Origin: Podospora anserina | Taxonomy: Eukaryota | Direction of reading: 5' to 3' | Length of the DNA stretch: 64,000 bases | NCBI GenBank assembly: GCA_017654855.1 | Contig: CM030336.1 | Location: 1,364,001 to 1,428,000 of the forward strand | Shown: positions 16,450-29,626 of the stretch, in pieces | Position numbering within the stretch: position 1 is the first letter of the stretch | Layout: each line of letters begins with the position of its first letter | Position numbers and translations under genes: made by a program | The notes under the pieces: model-generated | Told to the model about the DNA's origin: nothing | Seen by the model: the letters and a program-made list of their open reading frames with translations, nothing else | Database searches by the model: none

Positions 16450-17131
16450 GTTGGTGGCTGGCGGGCTTTGGTCTAGAGAGAAGATACGAATGATGCTGGA
16501 CACGATGCTATGGAGGATAATGGGATGGGGGAAAAGTTGTGAGTTGGACAAGCGGTACCTAGTTAGCGCTGAATTTACATGCTTTGCTTTTGTTTTCACT
16601 TACTACATCACATTTCTGCACCCTTTGTGACAAGTTGTCAATCGTGTCTTTACAGGCTCTGGTTGCCACCATTGGGCTGGCTGCTGCATCATCACAACTG
16701 TTTAAAGAAGGAAGGCGCTGTGACTCTGTCAATAAGCAATTCAGGGGTTCAGGGGCTGTCATGGTGACAAAGAAGATGGTCTGTGCACACCCACTGCGGA
16801 TTTGTCAGATTTTCAACTCTGGAACATACTACATACATACGTCAAAGAAGTGGGATGAAGAGACAATAATTTTGCTGATTTGGCCATGTGCTGAAACCCA
16901 ATCAAGCCCGACAATCTGGTCCGAGTTGTTGATCAGCCCGTGTAATTGGCTGCCGGGTAACACCGGTGATGTCACAAACCTGGCTGCTGGGTCAAGGCTT
17001 GGCAATTTGGGGCACAGGCGCAGTTGCATCATAGCTGTCGATCAGCAACATAAAATAACCAGCGACCCTCTCCATCAGTGAGACAATGTTTTCATCCACA
17101 TACTATACATAGCATCGTTATACCGGCTACC

Positions 17132-18718
17132 ATGAAGCCATTCCCAGAAGCTCCCGGGGGCCACACCCCTAAGACCTTCCCCTTCAACCTCCTCCGATGG
17201 CGATTCCTCCCCATCTTCCTCGGCCTAAGCTACATCCTCTACTGCAAACTCACCTCCCAACCCATCTTCGCCCACCCACTCCCCCAACACACTGGCCCCT
17301 ACGCCGTCGGCGCAATCGATATCGAATCCCCCGTTATGCCCGTGCGCACCATCGACACAGCACGATTCAAGGCAACTTCCACCTCCGCCTTCGACCTCCA
17401 AACCGTCCTCTTCACCGTTTACTACCCCACCACCTACGCCGCCGCCAAAGCCTCAACTGTCAAACGCCACCCTTGGATCCCACGACCACTTTACCTCCGT
17501 GCTCAGGGTTACGCCAAGGCGGCGCACATCAGCAACCGGCTTGTCAATAAAATCTTCGAGATTGCACTCAAGACGCTGGCCGGGAGCATCACCATCCCCG
17601 CTGCGGTTGACGCCCCGCTAAGCGACACCGCGACGAGATACTCCCAGTTTGCGACTTCATGGGACAAGGCAGAAACACAGGAGCAGGTGCTGGAGAATGC
17701 ACAGGTGGGAGGTCACCCGGTTATCATCTTTTCTCATGGGACTGTATCCAGTAGGACGGATTACTCCCATTATGCTGGGGAGCTCGCGGCGAGGGGGTAT
17801 GTGGTTGTTATGCTTGAGCATCGAGATGGGTCTTGCCCGGGGAGTATGATCAAGCGGAAGGGACTGCCGAAGGAGAAGAGGCTCATTTTCGATGAGAGTG
17901 AGGTTGAGACTGCTGATGGGAGGGAGATTAGCGTGGAGGACTTCCACAAGGCGCAGCTCAGCTTTCGGGAGGCGGAGATTGAAGAGGCGGTTAGGGTTAT
18001 GAAGTTGATTAATATGGGGCGAGGCGCGGATGTGTATGAGTTGAACCCCAGAGGCGAGGGGGTGGATCTTGTTAACTGGGCCGGGCGGTTGAACACAGAT
18101 GAGATGATCGTTGCTGGACATAGTTATGGAGCGACTGGGGCCATGCAAGCTTTACGTGGAGGGCCGACGTCAATGAGGCCGTTCAAGGGCGCTATCATCC
18201 TTGACCCTGGGAAGCAAAGCGGTCCGTTGAACAGAGATATCAACGTCCCCATGCTTGTGGTGCACAGCAATTCTTGGAGCAGCAAGACGAGCATCTTTTA
18301 TGGAAGGGCGCACTTTGACACGGTGAAGGAGATCGTGGAGGAGAATAATGAGAGGGGAAATCCGACTTGGTTTATGACTTCTCTGGGCACCTCGCATCCC
18401 AGTGTGACGGACGCGCCGTTATTGGAGCCTTGGATTCTGAGCTTCACGACTGGGGCAACAATTGATGTTTATCAGGGGTTGAGACAGTATGTACATGTTG
18501 CGGAGGACTTCTTGGCGTTTTTGGGTGATGGAAAGGCAAGGGGGTTGCTGGCTGAGAGGGCTGAGTTTCCTCAGTACGACGCTGGTTCTGGGTTGGGGAT
18601 GTGGCAGCCTGGTCAGGGTGATAACCAGCAGGCTTGGGAGGAGAAGGGGGAGTGGTGGGATTGGAGGAGCTACTGGCAGATTCATGTGTCTCCTGCGGGA
18701 AATGGTGACAAGAACTGA
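17132..18718 (+). CDS. Platelet-activating factor acetylhydrolase-like alpha/beta hydrolase (PAF-AH II family)
   Basis: GPYAVG, PVIIFSHG..SSRTDYS, LAARGYVVVMLEHRDGS, nucleophile motif GHSYG, LDP, and an N-terminal TM segment. Uninterrupted ORF. Confidence 0.92.
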   Translation: MKPFPEAPGGHTPKTFPFNLLRWRFLPIFLGLSYILYCKLTSQPIFAHPLPQHTGPYAVGAIDIESPVMPVRTIDTARFKATSTSAFDLQTVLFTVYYPTTYAAAKASTVKRHPWIPRPLYLRAQGYAKAAHISNRLVNKIFEIALKTLAGSITIPAAVDAPLSDTATRYSQFATSWDKAETQEQVLENAQVGGHPVIIFSHGTVSSRTDYSHYAGELAARGYVVVMLEHRDGSCPGSMIKRKGLPKEKRLIFDESEVETADGREISVEDFHKAQLSFREAEIEEAVRVMKLINMGRGADVYELNPRGEGVDLVNWAGRLNTDEMIVAGHSYGATGAMQALRGGPTSMRPFKGAIILDPGKQSGPLNRDINVPMLVVHSNSWSSKTSIFYGRAHFDTVKEIVEENNERGNPTWFMTSLGTSHPSVTDAPLLEPWILSFTTGATIDVYQGLRQYVHVAEDFLAFLGDGKARGLLAERAEFPQYDAGSGLGMWQPGQGDNQQAWEEKGEWWDWRSYWQIHVSPAGNGDKN

Positions 18719-21702: not shown

Positions 21703-23301
21703 ATGGACAGCCTCCCATCTCGACTTGATTCTCTGCGTCCAAAGATTGTGGAGCTGATGCGCATTGGTGGCACGCCTGGCCTCTCACTTGGTGCCATGCA
21801 CCAGGGCACCCAAGTGTACTTCGCCAGCTACGGCTACCGTGATGTCGAGTAACGATTGTTTCCAAACGACGAGACGATTCTTCCCGTTTGCTCTCTGACC
21901 AAGGCTGTTACCTCTGCGGACCTGGGAATCGTGGTCGATAAAAAGAAAGCGAGATGGAACACGCTGGTCAAGGACGCGCTGCCTCCGCCGGACATCCAAG
22001 ACAAACCCATCAGGACCAGATGACCATCGCCGATCTTCTCTGCCACCGATCGGCCATGGCTTGGGGTGACAATATGCTCATCGGCACTGACAGCAACATC
22101 CTCGTCAGCAGCGCAGGCTCGATGAAATATCTCAACAGTCAGACACGACTTCTGCCATTCCGCGGTCAGTTTGCCTACAACAATCTAGCGTACGAGCTCG
22201 TTGACAAAGTTATCGAGTCTCTCAGCAAAGAGTCGTTCATCGAATTTATCCAGAGTCGCATCTTTGACCGTTGGGCATGACGCGCACCTACTTCAAGACA
22301 CCGCCATCTGACCTCGACAATGTCGGAAAGTGCTACAATGCTCTGGACGACGAGACCTCCGCACCCATCACCTGTGTCAGATTGGGAGACGACGGCTCGG
22401 CGGCCCCCATGCGGGCATGCGGCCCTGCGTCAAAGACCTGATGAAGCTGTGCAAAGCGTTCATCAAAGCATTCGACCAACAAATTTCCACCGGAGAGACA
22501 TCTACCGAAGGACTACCGCGGAAGCAGATCGCGAATCTGATGTCAGCAAAGATCTTCATGGACCAGCCATCAAGAAATGAGGCCTCATATGGCTTTGGCT
22601 GGGCCCGCGTTCAGCCTCCCGGAAGAATGGGTCAGATTGGCACCAATCCCCATTTGATGCCTGAGGGGATGCCCGTTGTCGGCAAAGGAGTACCGTCCCG
22701 TTTGGTTATTTTCCACCAAGGAAGCATGCCTGGCACATTGGCTCTCAACATGCTTGTTCCGGACACGGAAAGCGCCATCGTCATCACACCCAACGCACTG
22801 GCTTTCAACGACGTCCCTGACTGGGTTGGGCAGCTGCTGCTGGAGGAGTTTCTCGAGGTTCCGACCCACAAACGCAACGATTACATCGCGGCAGCCAAGA
22901 TTTCAGCAGCTACAAATCTCCGGTGGTACCCTGATCTCGTTGAGGAGCTTGAGTGAACACGGATGAGCGGGCCATTGTCGCGGAATCTGAGTGCTTATGC
23001 CGGGACGTACTGGGATAAGCTTAATATCGTCAAGGTTGTTGTTACCGTGGAGGAAGCCCATCTCTACTGGTCTCTTCAGGACCTCAAGACCGAGAAAGTT
23101 CGACTCACTCACTATGAGGATGACGTATTCACTTGGGTCCAGCCATGCAACGAGTTATCACGGCGTGAACGATGGGTTGGTACGGACCAAGGGCCGAGCT
23201 TCTGGAAGGTGGAGTTTAAGGTTGGGCCAGATGGCAATCCTGATCGTCTGTACTAGTTCCATGACAATTATGTTCCAGTAGACGAGTACAAGAAAGAGTA
23301 A
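21703..23301 (+). pseudogene. Beta-lactamase/serine-hydrolase family pseudogene
   Basis: MDSLPSRLDSLRPKIVELMRIGGTPGLSLG..YGYRDVE*RLFPNDETILPVCSLTKA (SxxK), DLLCHRS, FAYNNLAY (YxN), HQGSMPG and AYAGTYW. Several stops and frameshifts. Confidence 0.88.
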
Positions 23302-24504
23302 CGTGTGGCCATTGTAGCTAGGATGAAGTGCGATGAGTTTGCAAAGGAAGTTTAGGGGGAGTCTTTATATGTCGTTTGTCAGACAATATGGTTTGTCAGG
23401 CAATATCACAAGTTCGATTCCATGCTCCAAATCAACTGCTGGATCCCATCTACCTACCTACCGACCTACCTATATACCTGTACACAAGACGTGTTGTTGG
23501 GGAGAGAGTTGTTCGTAAGGGTTAGGGTTTACCGACCCGACACTCAGCACAGTCCAGACCGTGCATCTGAGTGGACTGTAGTACCGTGGCAGGCCACAGT
23601 GATCCGTGTAATTCTAGCATCGCGAAGGACAGTCGCAGCAAGGTCAACTGTGAGCCAATGGAGGAAGCGTCGAATGTTGTTTTGATGTCGGTTCGAGAGA
23701 CAACACAATCGGAGATTTTTGGTTGGCCGTTGAACTTCAGCAGCCGCCCGGCCTGGTGGGGCATGCAAGTCCCCGTCAGTCGTGCGACATCGGCCTTCCG
23801 ATTGGCTGGGTTCAGCGCCTACAGAATGCCGCCAATGTCTTGGGTCAAAAAATAGCAATCGAATTCCAAGAGCCTCACTCGATCGCCTTGTTTCTTTTCC
23901 CATGTTGTGCAATTGGAGCTTAGGCGCCAATAGACGCGCTTGTTTCAAGCCGAAATGAATCATCCGTTGCCATGGATCAACGTCGGATCAAGATGGCTGG
24001 CGAACAGAACGGAGACACATAAGATGTCGAGCTGCCTCGACGGGGCTCGCTGCTTGGAGCTTCTGTTCAGCAACACAAGCACAACACACACGTCTTTTCC
24101 TTGGGTTTTGTTTCCCTTTTTTCCTTTTTCTTAGGGTCTCTTTTTTCCTATCTTTCCTTTGTGATTATCTACAGGTTTTTAACTTGGGTATTTCCTTGGG
24201 TCTTCGGTTTTCCTTGACTGCTCGATCACCGCCAGTCACCACCAGCACATCCACATCTATTCGACATTTCTTGGCAGTTGACCTGTCCCGATATCTTCCC
24301 CAAAACTTCACGCATCCAGCCGTGAAGTAACGAAACCCTGTCCCACGGTCTTATTACCAGTTGCCCAACATTCCCGTGACTACTTCCTTCCCGCCTCCCC
24401 CGACGGCGCCGTTTCCAAAATCCAAGTTTCCTCTCAGAACCGCCACCAAGGAGAGACCTTCGCTTGAGCTGGTTACCGAGTTCTACAACGCCGGGCCTAA
24501 CAAG

Positions 24505-25133
24505 ATGCGGTTCCAAGCGCCGCAGCTCGGCGCCTTGGGCGTCACCTTTACTGTCATGAGGGCATCACAGTTTGCGTGCCTCATTTCTGTCATTGGTCTT
24601 TGTGCCAACTTCATCAACGAGATTGCCACAGCCGAGCACAGTCCCCCATCAGAGCTTGTCGGTGCTTTGACAGTGGTATGTTGTCCCATTTCTCGACCAC
24701 TGCATCATATACTGACCTCAAACAGGCCGTCACAGCCATAATCTATGTGATCATCACATACATCTTGTACTACGACAACATGCTCTCGATGCTGACCACT
24801 GCTGGTCTCGACAGCCTCCTCCTCGTTGCCTCCATCGTCGTAGCTTCCTTGATTGGAAAGCCCCTTTCCATGCTCAACTGCGCTGCTCTCCCGTCCTCAG
24901 AATGGTCTGCCGGCCTGTTTTCGTCCGCACCTTCCCCAATCAAGTCGATCATCACCAAGACCGTTTCCTACATCAGCTTCGTTTTGCTTGACCAGACAAC
25001 CTGCTACCAAATCAAGGCTGTGTGGGGATTGTGCATCACCATCTGCCTGCTCTTCGCCTTTTCCACACTGGCCTGCCTCGGCCTCTGGCAACGCATCCGT
25101 CGCGAGACCAAGAACAAGGATATTGAGGGTTAG
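24505..25133 (+). CDS. MARVEL-like four-TM membrane protein
   Basis: MRFQAPQLGALGVTFTVMRASQFACLISVIGLCANFI; intron 24676-24725; GKPLSMLNC..L and TCYQIKAVWGLCI; ends KDIEG*(TAG 25131-25133). Confidence 0.88.
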
Positions 25134-25934
25134 GGGCGCGCGGGCACCTACGGAGGAGTGCGTGGTGTTGGGAAAGCATGGGAGTCGGACGTGTCTCTTG
25201 GCACAAAGTCAATGGCTTCCACCAATTCCTACTACCCAAGCTTCCCCCCTCCTCCGCTGGTGCCCATCCGCGACCGCGGAAACAGCCGTGCTCCCCCTGC
25301 GGCTTTGCTTTCTGTTGGAAATAATAACGCCCTCGGTTTGTCAATCACTCAGCCGAGATACAGCTGTGAATCGGACGCATCTTCCATCAATAGCGTTTTC
25401 ACTGGCGGCAGTCCCCCGACCAAAGGGCTGCGCCCACCGCCCAGGCTACACATGCGAGCGCCAGCCAAGACAATGCCGACGATCCCAGGGTCTCCCACTG
25501 ATGAGAAGGAGGGACAATATCAGGGCCTCTCCCCCCTGGCGTCTCGGGTCCCAGTGCTTACCTTGACAATCCCGAACACACAAGCAACAGTCACGTCTTC
25601 CAGTAACGACAAAATCCCCGAAGAACACAAACGGGTCCCAACTCGCCTTCCCTGTTCTCCTTTGTCGCCTATTAGAGGCTTCATGGCCGCTCGGCGCAAC
25701 CGCAGGTCCGGCGGTGTGCCCGTCCCACCTCCCATCGTGGTCCCTTCGCCTCCAGGCAGGAGCTCTCGCTTCAAGGAGCAAACGAGTCCCAGTCCGGCGC
25801 TGGAGACGGTGATTTTCAGCCCGCCCCCTATTCCTAGTGCTCCCAAGAAGAGGAAGACGGTCTGGGAAGGATGGTGGGATATCGGACTGTTGGAGAGGAT
25901 GAACACCATCAAGAGAAAGGCGCTCCCTAAATAG
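25134..25934 (+). CDS. Pro/Ser-rich in-frame extension behind the MARVEL-like stop (or a separate ORF)
   Basis: Stop-free frame from 25134 to TAG 25932-25934, same frame as the upstream gene. Ends KKRKTVWEGWWDIGLLERMNTIKRKALPK. Confidence 0.6.
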   Translation, partial: GRAGTYGGVRGVGKAWESDVSLGTKSMASTNSYYPSFPPPPLVPIRDRGNSRAPPAALLSVGNNNALGLSITQPRYSCESDASSINSVFTGGSPPTKGLRPPPRLHMRAPAKTMPTIPGSPTDEKEGQYQGLSPLASRVPVLTLTIPNTQATVTSSSNDKIPEEHKRVPTRLPCSPLSPIRGFMAARRNRRSGGVPVPPPIVVPSPPGRSSRFKEQTSPSPALETVIFSPPPIPSAPKKRKTVWEGWWDIGLLERMNTIKRKALPK

Positions 25935-26214
25935 ATGAACGATGATGGACGTAATGGATGATGTAGAATGAGCCTTGGTTAGGCCGGTAATCATTCGGGA
26001 TTGGAGCATAATTTTTGGGTATGGGAAAACTGGGACAGGATCATCTATCTCCCTTTGGAAGGTTGAGATATAAAATATATGAAATATGCAGAAGATAATA
26101 CAGATGGTTATTCAACACGACACTCACGGGGACTTTGTGCGGGGTCTTGATCGTAAAGCTTTTACATCTCATTGAGTGGCCTTTCTCGGAGACACAGTTG
26201 CGATTCACACCTAC

Positions 26215-27470: not shown

Positions 27471-28030
27471 ATTGTTAAGGGGCAAATGCTCAGACTCCTT
27501 CCTGTTCACTTACACTTGGCTACCTATGTTAAATGCATGTAAGTCATAACCGTCTATTTTCGTCCATTTTGTAGACAGGTGCATGATTTCATTGAGGGTC
27601 ATCAAGCCAAAGTGAAAGTTAGACCTCACATCATTAATCGTTCACTCAACTGCTAGCCTACCTCGAACAATCAGATGCCACGGGGACCGCTGCTCCGATA
27701 TCTCCTTTAGATCCCACTTTTCGAGCCAACCGTTCTTGGCCCAAAGCTCGTAAATCGAATAAATAAAGTAAATCACCAGGTTCTACAGCCCCAACTTGAA
27801 GCGATATAAAGTGCTGCTGACGGTGTGCGTCACAGTGGAGGATTCGAGATGCATCAGCAATATAAATTCCCCGCAAATCGACTTCCCGTCCCGAAAAATA
27901 TCATTTCCATCGTGGCTGAGTCTTTACTGTTCCCAGGGAAAAACTGTCGATATAAAACCATACCCCATCACCTCCTTTTCTGACCGTTAGTACGCTCACC
28001 CCATGATAACCCTCCCCTTCCACACCCACA

Positions 28031-29626
28031 ATGCCTCTCCTCTCCATCTTCCTCCTCCCCCTCCTCCTCCCTTCATCCCTCGCCCAAAAGAAAGGCAACC
28101 TCAGCCTCGAAACCCACCCCCCCTTCCAATGGGCACAATGCACCTCCCCTACCAACTGCACAACAATCAACTCATCCCTCGTCCTCGACGCCAACTGGCG
28201 CTGGGTCCACGACGACAAGTATCGCAACTGCGCGGAGCAAAACCCAGACGGCACCCAGTGGTGGAACCCCGCCGTTTGCGACCTAGGTGATGAAAGTCCG
28301 GCATCAACTAACAATTGCACCTCAAAGTGCCTTCTCGAAGGAGCCGGGGACTATCGTTGGAGCTATGGCATCACTACCACCAACGCCACCCTGATGCAGA
28401 AGCTGGTGACGAGGATCGAGTTCGCTACCAATTATGGTTCAAGGCTTTTCTTGCTGGAGAAGATGGATAGATACCAGACTTTTGTGCTGTTGGGGAATGA
28501 GCTTAGTTTTGAGGTGGATTTGTCGACTGTTGGGTGTGGGGTTAATGCTGCGTTGGGGTTTGTGGCTATGGATGCTGATGGGGGGGTGGAGAGGCATAAG
28601 CCGTGGAATGAGGCTGGGGCGGAGTATGGGACTGGGTATTGTGACGGCTGGTGTCAGGATAGGCAGAGATTTGTTGGGGGGAGGGCCGCGACGAATAAAC
28701 AGGGGGCGCGGGGGTACCAGTGGCAGAGTGATGGGGCTTGTTGTCCCGAGTTTGCGGTTTGGTGAGCTGTTGAGATGTCTTGAGAGTGGATAAGGCTGAT
28801 GACGTTGCAGGAACTCGAACGCTCATTCATACTCGATGTCTTCGCATATTTGTGAGAATGATGATTATGAACCATGCCCTGGACCTTGGTGCGACCCGAC
28901 ATATTATGATCCTGACGAGAGGGGCGTTCCACCAAAGTGTGCCAGGAAAGGGTGCGAGTACAACCCGTATAGGATGGGGGCGAAGGAATTTTATGGGAAG
29001 GGGAAGCTGGTCGATACCACAAGGAAATTCACGTGAGTGTTATGCTTCAGACCCGCGCTATGTCTTGCTGACAAGGCCTCAGTGTTGTGACTCGTTGGGA
29101 AGAAGACCGTCAGTATCAGTTCTTTATCCAAGATGGGAAAAGGATTGATGTCCCAGCTCCAACGTGGGATGGGCTCCCAAAGCAAAGCGGCTTAAGTAAG
29201 GAAATGTGTGATGTACAGGCCAACGTCTTTATGGAGCAAGACATCTGGGCGGTGCATAATGGCTGGCCGACACACCAAAGGCAGGTGTTGAGCCGGCCCA
29301 TGGTGTTGGTGACATCGATTGATGCGGCTGATGTGAGTGTATATTCTGGTGCTGTGAGATGTTTTGCCGCTAATAATCTGGTGGAAGTGGTATACGTGGA
29401 ACACCTGGCTTGACTCATCCAAGATACCCCCTTATGATGACCGGGATCCTGGTGTTGAGCGTGGACCCTGTCCATGGGAGGATAATGAACCCTTGATTGC
29501 TCGAGCAAGCAATGGTCAAGCGTAAGTCTCATTTGTGAATGGTGAAGAAAGAATCTGACATGATACAGAAAGGTTGTGTGGTCCAACATCAGATTTGGGC
29601 CTATTGGGTCAACAGTTGAATTTTGA
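28031..29626 (+). CDS. Secreted glycoside hydrolase family 7 protein with a non-canonical catalytic motif; no CBM1
   Basis: Signal peptide, ETHP, VLDANWRWVH, GNELSFEVDLSTVGCGVNAAL.FVAMDADGG, AGAEYGTGYCD, GCEYNPYRMG, VDTTRKFT and WSNIRFGPIGST. First intron 28762-28810, with further introns near 29033, 29333 and 29522. TATAAAA at 27951. Confidence 0.92.

What the first reader, a model, noticed from the sequence alone, without database searches (positions are those of the whole stretch)
24505..25934. A single UAG separates a MARVEL-like membrane protein from a 266-codon in-frame extension: candidate stop-loss RNA editing or readthrough
Seen: the spliced 4-TM ORF ends ...GAT ATT GAG GGT TAG and continues GGG CGC GCG GGC ACC TAC GGA GGA GTG in the same frame, with no stop for 801 nt. 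The extension is Pro/Ser-rich and ends in a motif-like KKRKTVWEGWWDIGLLER. There is no room for a separate promoter before its first ATG (25212), and neither part shows other decay. Established: Sordariomycetes such as Fusarium and Neurospora perform sexual-stage A-to-I mRNA editing that favours U at -1 and can turn UAG into UGG (Trp). Inference: the gene may make a short vegetative isoform and a long, tail-bearing isoform in fruiting bodies.
Basis: partly seen in the sequence, partly recalled or inferred. Interest (0 to 1): 0.75.

Follow-up and report, generated by a model that had tools for sequence, protein, structure and literature searches.

The report
Conserved stop splits MARVEL-tail gene
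A Podospora membrane-protein gene carries one UAG stop that many related fungi keep at the same place in front of a conserved 266-codon tail, which fits the known fungal habit of editing UAG to UGG during sexual development, though the edit itself is not shown here.

Summary
The gene runs ATG 24505, 50-nt intron 24676-24725, TAG 25131-25133, then 266 open in-frame codons to a second TAG at 25932-25934. The MARVEL part is 99% identical to Podospora anserina PODANS_5_12780.

This is not a strain-specific nonsense mutation. Of 288 related proteins fetched, 100 end just after the same "KDIEG" peptide. All 49 fused MARVEL+tail gene models skip either the peptide block before the stop or the block after it, and none keeps both. 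In several species no Met lies between the stop and conserved tail motifs. So ribosomes most likely enter the tail through the stop.

The best mechanism is sexual-stage A-to-I editing (UAG to UGG, Trp), which is documented for hundreds of genes in Sordariomycetes. The site reads UU[A]GGGG, the preferred base at all six flanking positions, a context shared by 27 of 1347 TAGs in the window. It does not sit in a predicted hairpin loop.

No RNA data or orthologue DNA could be reached, so neither the edit nor the stop-codon identity elsewhere is shown. Translational readthrough remains a rival.

Verdict: a probable new member of a known kind. Interest is moderate.

The parts
24331..24504 (+). In-frame open stretch upstream of the ATG. 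It encodes a conserved peptide (…FPPPPTAPFPKSKFPLRTATKERPSLELVTEF…) and may be an N-terminal extension, but it contains no ATG.
   Evidence: The translation is. The same peptide is annotated as coding in the Neurospora, Chaetomium and Mycothermus models, and the P. anserina protein P0209 starts 5'-partial inside it. GC3 is 0.638 here against 0.409 further upstream. No upstream ATG exon with good splice signals was found, but near-cognate codons lie at 24361, 24370 and 24376.
24505..24675 (+). Exon 1 of the MARVEL-like protein (57 codons, containing TM1).
   Evidence: It is collinear with P0209.
24676..24725 (+). A 50-nt intron (GTATGT … TACTGAC … ACAG).
   Evidence: Removing it gives a 192-aa ORF that matches the orthologues.
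24726..25130 (+). Exon 2 of the MARVEL-like protein (135 codons, TM2-TM4, ending …KNKDIEG).
   Evidence: It is 99% identical to PODANS_5_12780.
25131..25133 (+). The in-frame TAG stop. The candidate edited adenosine is at 25132.
   Evidence: The context is UU[A]GGGG. The stop position is conserved: 100 of 288 relatives end here.
25134..25931 (+). A 266-codon in-frame tail. It is Pro/Ser-rich, predicted to be disordered, and carries conserved short motifs.
   Evidence: The orthologue's tail has pLDDT of about 40-45.
25134..25157 (+). The conserved peptide block directly after the stop (GRAGTYGG; family pattern G-[RCY]-A-G).
   Evidence: The block is present in 18 fused orthologue models, all of which lack the KDIE block.
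25242..25271 (+). The conserved FPPPPLVPIR motif of the tail.
25845..25898 (+). The conserved C-terminal motif KKRKTVWEGWWDIGLLER.
   Evidence: R416, T418, G422, W423, W424, L426 and L428 are invariant in 39 orthologues. Short helices are predicted at the matching place.
25932..25934 (+). The final stop (TAG) of the long reading frame. An AT-richer stretch follows it.

Best explanation
The locus is one gene of a Podospora species, the orthologue of P. anserina PODANS_5_12780, and it encodes two nested products. Normal decoding stops at UAG 25131-25133 and gives a 192-aa four-helix MARVEL-like membrane protein. During sexual development, the Sordariomycete mRNA-editing deaminase (Tad2-Tad3 with Ame1) would convert A25132 to inosine. 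The codon then reads UGG (Trp), and the ribosome continues for 266 more codons. The result is a 459-aa isoform with a long disordered cytosolic tail that carries conserved proline- and serine-rich motifs and a terminal KKRKTVWEGWWDIGLLER helix.

What is shown: the anatomy; the conservation of the stop position; the conservation of peptide blocks on both sides of the stop; the lack of a conserved internal AUG; and the optimal sequence context for editing.

[quoted passage not shown] My guess, which no call tests, is that the tail recruits partners or binds membrane at the MARVEL protein's site.
For: 1. Lineage. Exon 2 is 99% identical to Podospora anserina PODANS_5_12780. That species belongs to Sordariales, Sordariomycetes. 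One paper calls A-to-I mRNA editing 'a common feature in Sordariomycetes' (PMC11087585, passages).

2. Stop position conserved. Of 288 family proteins fetched, 100 end 0-3 residues after a K[DE][IVFLM][EK] motif, mostly …KDIEG. Among the short homologues P0209-P0286 the count is 72 of 78. These include Sordariales, Xylariales/Amphisphaeriales and Glomerellales.

3. Models avoid the stop. Of the 49 fused MARVEL+tail models, 16 keep the pre-stop block, 18 keep the post-stop G[RCY]AG block, 15 keep neither and 0 keep both. Two models for the two N. tetrasperma strains FGSC 2508 and FGSC 2509 skip opposite sides. Teichert 2018 describes exactly this artefact: introns annotated to avoid an edited stop and keep conserved downstream sequence (PMC6160140, passage).

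4. Split models are neighbours. Thermocarpiscus VTK56DRAFT_2977 (MARVEL) and _2976 (tail) lie on one 55,726-bp contig.

5. The tail is under protein-level constraint. Tail-only hits reach E 1e-44 to 1e-31. Seven residues of the C-terminal motif are invariant in 39 sequences.

6. No conserved internal start. Both blocks were found in 12 sequences, and 7 of them have no Met between the post-stop block and the conserved FPPPP block. These include Cercophora, two Neurospora, Sordaria, Thermothelomyces and Hypomontagnella.

7. Site context. UU[A]GGGG has the preferred base at -2, -1, +1, +2, +3 and +4 as defined in PMC9600606 (passages). Only 27 of 1347 TAG trinucleotides in the window share this.

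8. Precedent. There are 403 stop-loss genes in F. graminearum (PMC13123824, section and Dataset S1). Fifteen stop-loss extensions in S. macrospora have peptide evidence, including wc-1 with +131 aa (PMC6794485, passages).

9. No usable intron. There are 28 in-frame GT..AG pairs across the TAG. The best donor matches 2 of 4 consensus positions, and none has a CTRAY branch site.
Against: No RNA data were available, so the A>G change itself is not shown. None of the papers I read reports editing in Podospora: the term had 0 occurrences in PMC11087585, and the search found no Podospora editing study.

Orthologue DNA could not be fetched. The conserved stop could therefore be TAA or TGA in some species, which editing could not rescue.

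The adenosine is not in a predicted hairpin loop. Only 56 of 3000 Boltzmann samples place it there, and local folds are no more stable than shuffles (z = 1.11, 0.00 and 0.84). Over 62% of known sites lie in hairpin loops. The same paper does say that sites with all six preferred bases depend less on hairpins.

NEUTE1DRAFT_123780 is absent from the data file (Data Set S2) that holds the 15 peptide-supported stop-loss genes of S. macrospora.

Stop-loss tails described so far are mostly poorly conserved, unlike this one.

The block counts rest on my own regular expressions and on gene models of unknown quality.
Confidence: 0.6

Rival explanations
1. Programmed translational readthrough. A fraction of ribosomes decode the UAG with a near-cognate tRNA at all stages, giving a low constant level of the long isoform without any change in the RNA.
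For: All the comparative evidence for passage through the stop fits readthrough equally well: the conserved stop position, the conserved blocks on both sides, and the lack of a conserved internal AUG. The sequence after the stop is G+C-rich, and a small hairpin is predicted 12-30 nt downstream.
Against: Folds around the stop are no more stable than shuffles (z = 1.11, 0.00 and 0.84). UAG-G is not one of the readthrough contexts I recall, such as UGA-CUA in fungal peroxisomal isoforms or UAG-CAAUUA in tobamoviruses; this is recalled and not checked in any call. In this class of fungi, UAG editing is documented for hundreds of genes. The site's six-position context is the one preferred for editing.
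Confidence: 0.13
2. Two separate genes. The UAG is the ordinary end of a 192-aa MARVEL protein. The tail is made on its own, from its own transcript or an internal start, as several genome annotations have it.
For: Many annotations list MARVEL-only models. Fourteen or more list tail-only models, for example Cladorrhinum PSN332, Podospora fimiseda, Thermocarpiscus, Canariomyces and Achaetomium. The window has an in-frame ATG at 25212. Some relatives have an ATG about 10 codons after the stop (MKHKESWETD…).
Against: The two ORFs stay adjacent, and in the window they share a frame with 0 nt between them. The peptide directly after the stop (G[RCY]AG…) and the PWESD.SLGTKS and FPPPP blocks are conserved. 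In 7 of 12 sequences they lie upstream of any Met. Only 78 nt separate the TAG from ATG 25212, and that stretch looks like coding sequence, not a promoter. Sporothrix relatives are annotated as continuous MARVEL+tail proteins.
Confidence: 0.13
3. Alternative splicing removes the stop, so that a minor mRNA joins the MARVEL part to the tail.
For: Forty-nine annotated orthologue models do exactly this, with varied introns. GTTAGG at 25129 has the G at +5 that is typical of donor sites.
Against: In the window, 28 in-frame GT..AG pairs of 40-400 nt span the TAG. The best donors match 2 of 4 consensus positions, and none has a CTRAY branch site 5-45 nt from its 3' end. The orthologue 'introns' differ from model to model. 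Each removes a peptide block that is conserved elsewhere. Some would be only about 33-39 nt long, as inferred from the 11-13 residues missing in the Neurospora and Cercophora models.
Confidence: 0.04

Closest known systems
Stop-loss A-to-I editing of FgDBF2 in Fusarium graminearum (PMC13123824; abstract and sections 13 and 15 read)
   Same: Both have a canonical UAG stop in a Sordariomycete gene followed by an in-frame disordered extension. In both, the stop is conserved across the class. The proposed outcome is also the same: a stage-specific longer isoform.
   Different: The DBF2 tail is short and poorly conserved in sequence, and it acts as a degron. Its stop lies in a hairpin loop in 82% of species. 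Here the tail is 266 codons with strongly conserved motifs, and no hairpin loop is predicted. Editing is demonstrated for DBF2 and only inferred here.
white collar 1 stop-loss editing in Sordaria macrospora (PMC6794485; passages read)
   Same: Both are Sordariales genes with a long C-terminal extension (131 aa for wc-1) that adds sequence with its own features.
   Different: The wc-1 extension has peptide-level proof. This gene is not in the data file (Data Set S2) that lists that paper's 15 stop-loss cases, as searched by the N. tetrasperma id.
PUK1-like premature-stop-correction (PSC) editing (PMC4817773 search listing; PMC11156358 and PMC6160140 passages)
   Same: In both, an in-frame UAG lies inside conserved coding sequence, and gene predictors hide it under spurious introns. 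Full-length protein needs UAG to UGG.
   Different: PSC genes are treated as needing the edit to be functional at all. Here the short product is a complete four-helix domain and is probably functional on its own.
rfk-1 of the Neurospora Sk-2 spore killer (bioRxiv 10.1101/2020.12.30.424869; abstract in the search listing only)
   Same: Both have an early UAG and a late stop, with the two protein variants decided by editing.
   Different: rfk-1 is a lineage-specific meiotic-drive gene, not a gene widely conserved across the class.
MARVEL domain family (Pfam PF01284)
   Same: Both have four transmembrane helices. UniRef labels many relatives 'MARVEL domain-containing', and the precomputed Pfam field shows PF01284 on 3 relatives.
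   Different: Scores here are below Pfam's cut-off: 14.8-24.4 bits against 32.8.

Membership tests
Fungal A-to-I stop-loss / premature-stop-correction editing site | The host belongs to a lineage with sexual-stage mRNA editing (Sordariomycetes; Tad2-Tad3-Ame1). | tested here: met
   There is 99% identity to P. anserina PODANS_5_12780, a member of Sordariales, Sordariomycetes. Editing is called common in the class. No paper I read shows it in Podospora itself.
Fungal A-to-I stop-loss / premature-stop-correction editing site | The stop is UAG, so the edit gives UGG, with U at -1. | tested here: met
   TAG lies at 25131-25133. The rule is stated in PMC11156358.
Fungal A-to-I stop-loss / premature-stop-correction editing site | Preferred bases at -2 (C/U), +1 (A/G), +2 (G), +3 (A/G) and +4 (A/G). 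| tested here: met
   The site reads UU[A]GGGG. Only 27 of 1347 TAGs in the window match all six positions. The preferences come from PMC9600606.
Fungal A-to-I stop-loss / premature-stop-correction editing site | The edited adenosine lies in a predicted hairpin loop (over 62% of known sites). | tested here: not met
   Only 56 of 3000 sampled structures place it in a hairpin loop, and it is unpaired in 2984 of 3000. Fold z-scores are 1.11, 0.00 and 0.84. This is a preference, not a requirement.
Fungal A-to-I stop-loss / premature-stop-correction editing site | A>G mismatch in sexual-stage RNA and not in vegetative RNA. | not testable with these tools
   No RNA-seq access was available. Liu et al. 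2017 (N. crassa) is not held.
Fungal A-to-I stop-loss / premature-stop-correction editing site | The stop is kept as TAG in orthologues. | not testable with these tools
   Only the position of the stop is seen, through protein ends. No fungal DNA collection is offered.
Fungal A-to-I stop-loss / premature-stop-correction editing site | An in-frame ORF follows the stop and is translated. | tested here: met
   There are 266 open codons, and 4 of 2000 shuffles stay open. Protein-level conservation reaches E 1e-44. Translation is inferred from this conservation.
MARVEL domain (PF01284) | Pfam score at or above the gathering cut-off (32.8 bits). | tested here: not met
   P0209 scores 14.8 bits, P0223 24.4 bits and P0010 22.7 bits. 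The window's pieces gave no hit.
MARVEL domain (PF01284) | A four-transmembrane-helix architecture. | tested here: met
   The AlphaFold2 model of the Cercophora orthologue has helices at 10-42, 49-73, 79-105 and 149-189, with pLDDT 70-84. It is a model of an orthologue, not of the window protein.
Programmed stop-codon readthrough | A stimulatory stop context or a stable downstream RNA structure. | tested here: inconclusive
   No fold is more stable than shuffles. The known context motifs are recalled from memory and were not scanned against a curated list.

The most novel reading that the evidence does not exclude
The UAG is an anciently fixed, selected switch. In three subclasses of Sordariomycetes the stop has been kept at one position rather than hard-wired to TGG, in front of a motif-rich 266-codon tail. 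The same gene therefore makes a bare MARVEL membrane protein in hyphae and a tailed form only when the editing machinery is on. This would be an unusually deep and sequence-constrained case of adaptive stop-codon editing. It would also be a functional module, unlike the generic degron tails described so far.
Probability: 0.35. Interest if true: 0.65.

Novelty: new member of a known kind. Interest (0 to 1): 0.5.

Why it matters
Stop-codon editing in fungi is established, but few cases have a known purpose. The extensions studied so far are short, poorly conserved destabilising tails.

This gene would differ in two ways. Its stop position is kept across Sordariales, Xylariales/Amphisphaeriales and Glomerellales. 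Its tail is long and constrained at specific motifs. That argues for selection on both isoforms, and it gives a clean test case in a tractable model fungus by comparing uneditable TAA, hard-wired TGG and wild-type alleles.

There is also a practical point. At least 49 database gene models of this family contain invented introns, and many others split one gene into two.

Tried and rejected
- **Cluster members.** The orthologue could therefore not be looked up in published editing tables.
- **Liu et al. 2017.** The N. crassa editing atlas is not held under either its PMC id or its DOI.
- **S. macrospora proteogenomics supplements (PMC6794485).** There were no hits for junction or tail peptides or for NEUTE1DRAFT_123780. 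One scanned PDF among the files was not searchable.
- **F. graminearum Dataset S1 (PMC13123824).** I read part 1 of 3. It lists gene ids without sequences, and I had no Fusarium orthologue id, so no match could be made.
- **Paper search for the gene.** A search for Pa_5_12780 found 0 papers. A search for MARVEL + A-to-I + perithecia found 1 irrelevant paper.
- **Function of the tail.** Pfam gave no family for it. The ESM Atlas gave nothing at 0.9 or above.
- **Other ORFs over the tail.** The antisense ORF 25449-26111 and the +1 frame ORF 24853-25563 had no Pfam hits. The homology of the + strand frame makes them by-products.
- **Splicing over the stop.** Rejected on weak signals.
- **Strain-specific nonsense mutation.** Rejected because the stop position is conserved.
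- **Upstream ATG-bearing exon for the conserved 5' peptide.** None with acceptable splice signals was found.
- **Xylaria arbuscula model (…KDVEGW|PVALGT…).** It shows a W after KDVEG. I could not tell whether this is a hard-wired TGG or a splice artefact.
- **Collections not searched.** The genome-contig collection was not scanned because it holds only bacteria and archaea.
Full report
**1. What is in the sequence**

- The ORF starts at ATG 24505.
- A 50-nt intron with canonical signals (GTATGT … TACTGAC … ACAG) lies at 24676-24725.
- Exon 2 runs from 24726 to 25130 and ends …AAG GAT ATT GAG GGT.
- TAG follows at 25131-25133.
- The same frame then stays open for 266 codons (25134-25931) and ends at a second TAG (25932-25934).
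- The spliced short product is 192 aa. Read through with Trp, the long product would be 459 aa.

The splice junction is confirmed by collinearity with the Podospora anserina protein P0209.

The open tail is not a chance ORF.
- Only 4 of 2000 dinucleotide-preserving shuffles stay open.
- Only 10 of 5917 stop-to-stop intervals in the whole window are this long.
- Third-position G+C is 0.628 in the tail against 0.393 just downstream.

**2. Whose gene it is**

Exon 2 is 99% identical to 'uncharacterized protein PODANS_5_12780, partial [Podospora anserina S mat+]'. That species belongs to Sordariales, Sordariomycetes. The window therefore comes from P. anserina or a very close relative.

Many relatives are labelled 'MARVEL domain-containing' by UniRef. 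My own Pfam scans gave only sub-threshold MARVEL matches of 14.8, 24.4 and 22.7 bits against a cut-off of 32.8. The window's separate pieces gave nothing.

I ran an AlphaFold2 model of the Cercophora orthologue, built on a 39-sequence alignment.
- It has four long helices (10-42, 49-73, 79-105, 149-189; pLDDT 70-84).
- The tail has pLDDT of about 40-45 and looks disordered.
- Short helices appear at the conserved C-terminal motif.

The neighbours are ordinary: a GH7 glycoside hydrolase at 28010-28762 and a PAF-acetylhydrolase-like hydrolase at 17054-18715.

**3. The stop is conserved and the tail is a real coding sequence**

Three word-indexed searches and one exhaustive search returned 288 family proteins in all.
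- 66 hits.
- 161 hits at E ≤ 0.001, of which 150 were listed.
- 83 hits.
- 7 hits.

I sorted them with my own regular expressions.

| Class | Proteins |
|---|---|
| End 0-3 residues after K[DE][IVFLM][EK] (nearly always …KDIEG) | 100 |
| Tail motif GWW[DE][LI]GL but no TM4 motif | 37 |
| Fused MARVEL+tail models | 49 |
| MARVEL part with another ending (includes contig-edge fragments, ORFs running into an intron and more distant paralogues) | 59 |
| Other fragments | 43 |

Among the short homologues P0209-P0286 alone, 72 of 78 end at the KDIEG-like motif.

The species that end there span three subclasses.
- Sordariales: Podospora, Apiosordaria, Chaetomium, Thermothelomyces, Lasiosphaeria.
- Xylariales/Amphisphaeriales: Hypoxylon, Annulohypoxylon, Apiospora.
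- Glomerellales: several Colletotrichum.

The tail is conserved at protein level.
- Tail-only models and ORFs hit the query at E 9.6e-44 to 7.6e-31.
- In a 39-sequence alignment, seven positions of the terminal motif are invariant (R416, T418, G422, W423, W424, L426 and L428, Cercophora numbering). Blocks such as FPPPP.AP, IP.EHK and PRSPLSP recur.

**4. Evidence that ribosomes pass the stop**

Two short peptide blocks flank the stop: …KDIEG before it and G-[RCY]-A-G… directly after it. In the window they read KDIEG * GRAGTYGG.

The 49 fused gene models split as follows.

| Which block the model keeps | Models |
|---|---|
| Pre-stop KDIE block only | 16 |
| Post-stop G[RCY]AG block only | 18 |
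| Neither | 15 |
| Both | 0 |

The models for the two Neurospora tetrasperma strains show the cause. One (FGSC 2508) reads …SRETVVVGSRKDIEE|SDVSLYG…. The other (FGSC 2509) reads …SRETV|GRAGAGWGVREKNYYLYGSESESDVSLYG…. Each invents a different intron to avoid what lies between the blocks.

The same species can also appear with a stop-terminated model and a fused model. Colletotrichum higginsianum does so as P0264 and P0028.

Split models are neighbours. Thermocarpiscus VTK56DRAFT_2977 and _2976 lie on one 55,726-bp contig.

Teichert (2018) describes exactly this artefact. [quoted passage not shown]

An internal AUG cannot make the whole conserved tail. My patterns found both the post-stop block and the FPPPP block in 12 sequences, and 7 of them have no Met between the two. 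Those include Cercophora, two Neurospora, Sordaria, Thermothelomyces and Hypomontagnella. Three of the 12 pattern matches (P0028, P0060, P0080) look doubtful.

In the window itself, 26 conserved codons lie between the TAG and the first ATG at 25212.

**5. Which bypass mechanism**

*Splicing is unlikely.* Of 28 in-frame GT..AG pairs of 40-400 nt that span the TAG, the best donors match 2 of 4 consensus positions. None has a CTRAY branch site at a usable distance.

[quoted passage not shown] It strongly prefers U at -1 and frequently converts UAG to UGG (PMC11156358, abstract and sections).

It has been reported for:
- 403 stop-loss genes in F. graminearum (PMC13123824, section 15 and Dataset S1 part 1);
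- 47 stop-loss sites in S. macrospora protoperithecia (PMC5381528, passages);
- 15 extensions with peptide evidence, including wc-1 with +131 aa (PMC6794485, passages).

The preferred bases are C/U at -2, U at -1, A/G at +1, G at +2 and A/G at +3 and +4 (PMC9600606, passages). The site here reads UU[A]GGGG and meets all six. Only 27 of 1347 TAG trinucleotides in the window (2.0%) do so.

*Points against editing.*
- The adenosine is not in a predicted hairpin loop: 56 of 3000 Boltzmann samples place it in one, although it is unpaired in 2984 of them.
- Local folds are no more stable than shuffles (z = 1.11, 0.00 and 0.84).
- PMC9600606 reports that sites with all six preferred bases are less often in hairpins, so this weakens the case only mildly.

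*Ribosomal readthrough stays open.* It explains the comparative data equally well. It has no positive signal of its own here.

**6. What could not be done**

- No RNA-seq could be reached, and no fungal DNA collection is offered. The A>G change and the codon identity of the conserved stop (TAG versus TAA or TGA) are therefore both untested.
- The N. crassa editing atlas is not held.
- The N. tetrasperma id is not in the data file that lists the 15 peptide-supported S. macrospora stop-loss cases.
- Searches for Pa_5_12780 and for MARVEL with A-to-I and perithecia found nothing on this gene. I found no report of it in these two full-text searches.

**7. Other lineages**

Sporothrix (named) has annotated continuous MARVEL+tail proteins of 561-740 aa. 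They carry the GWWDLGLL motif but neither junction block. Whether these are true uninterrupted ORFs cannot be told from proteins alone. One Xylaria arbuscula model reads …KDVEGW|PVALGT…, and I could not resolve it.

**8. Verdict**

A conserved stop that is passed by translation is well supported. Editing as the means is likely (about 0.6) but not shown.

The phenomenon is known, so this is a new member of a known kind. It is made more interesting by the depth of conservation and by a long, motif-constrained tail, which contrasts with the short, poorly conserved degron tails described for other stop-loss genes.

Noticed in passing
window 24331-24504 (+): The frame of the ATG at 24505 is open for 58 codons upstream and contains no ATG. 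It encodes a peptide (…FPPPPTAPFPKSKFPLRTATKERPSLELVTEF…) that is conserved and annotated as N-terminal coding sequence in the Neurospora, Chaetomium and Mycothermus models. The P. anserina RefSeq protein starts 5'-partial inside it, and the Cladorrhinum PSN259 model has no Met at the usual start. GC3 is 0.638. No upstream ATG exon with good splice signals was found. Near-cognate codons lie at TTG 24361, ATT 24370 and GTG 24376. This may be a non-AUG start or a missed exon.
   Followed up: partly
window 24388-24402 and 25242-25256 (+): The same FPPPP motif, followed by x-A/V-P, occurs in the conserved upstream peptide and again early in the tail. Both predicted cytosolic ends of the long isoform would therefore carry it. 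I recall FPPPP as a proline-rich ligand motif, but this was not tested here.
   Followed up: no
relatives P0125, P0127, P0129, P0133, P0134, P0149, P0154 and others: Many contig-derived ORFs of relatives break off as …LSIALW followed by unrelated residues. This suggests an intron inside TM4 in those species where the window gene has none.
   Followed up: no
relatives P0131, P0139, P0287-P0290 (Sporothrix): Sporothrix species have annotated continuous MARVEL+tail proteins (561-740 aa). They carry the GWWDLGLL end motif but lack the KDIEG and GRAG junction blocks. They may be a lineage without the internal stop.
   Followed up: partly
window 28010-28762 (+), 17054-18715 (+), 22312-22953 (+): The neighbouring ORFs are a glycoside hydrolase family 7 fragment (E 2.7e-64), a PAF-acetylhydrolase-like hydrolase (E 4.4e-38) and a sub-threshold beta-lactamase-like stretch (23.5 bits against a cut-off of 27).
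   Followed up: no
window 23955-23981 (+): A short ORF starts MNHPLPWIN. It matches the first exon (MNHPSPGIN) that the Apiosordaria backusii model splices onto …FPLRTASK. In the window the donor there would be GTCGGA, which is a poor match. It may be a upstream ORF or an annotation guess.
   Followed up: no
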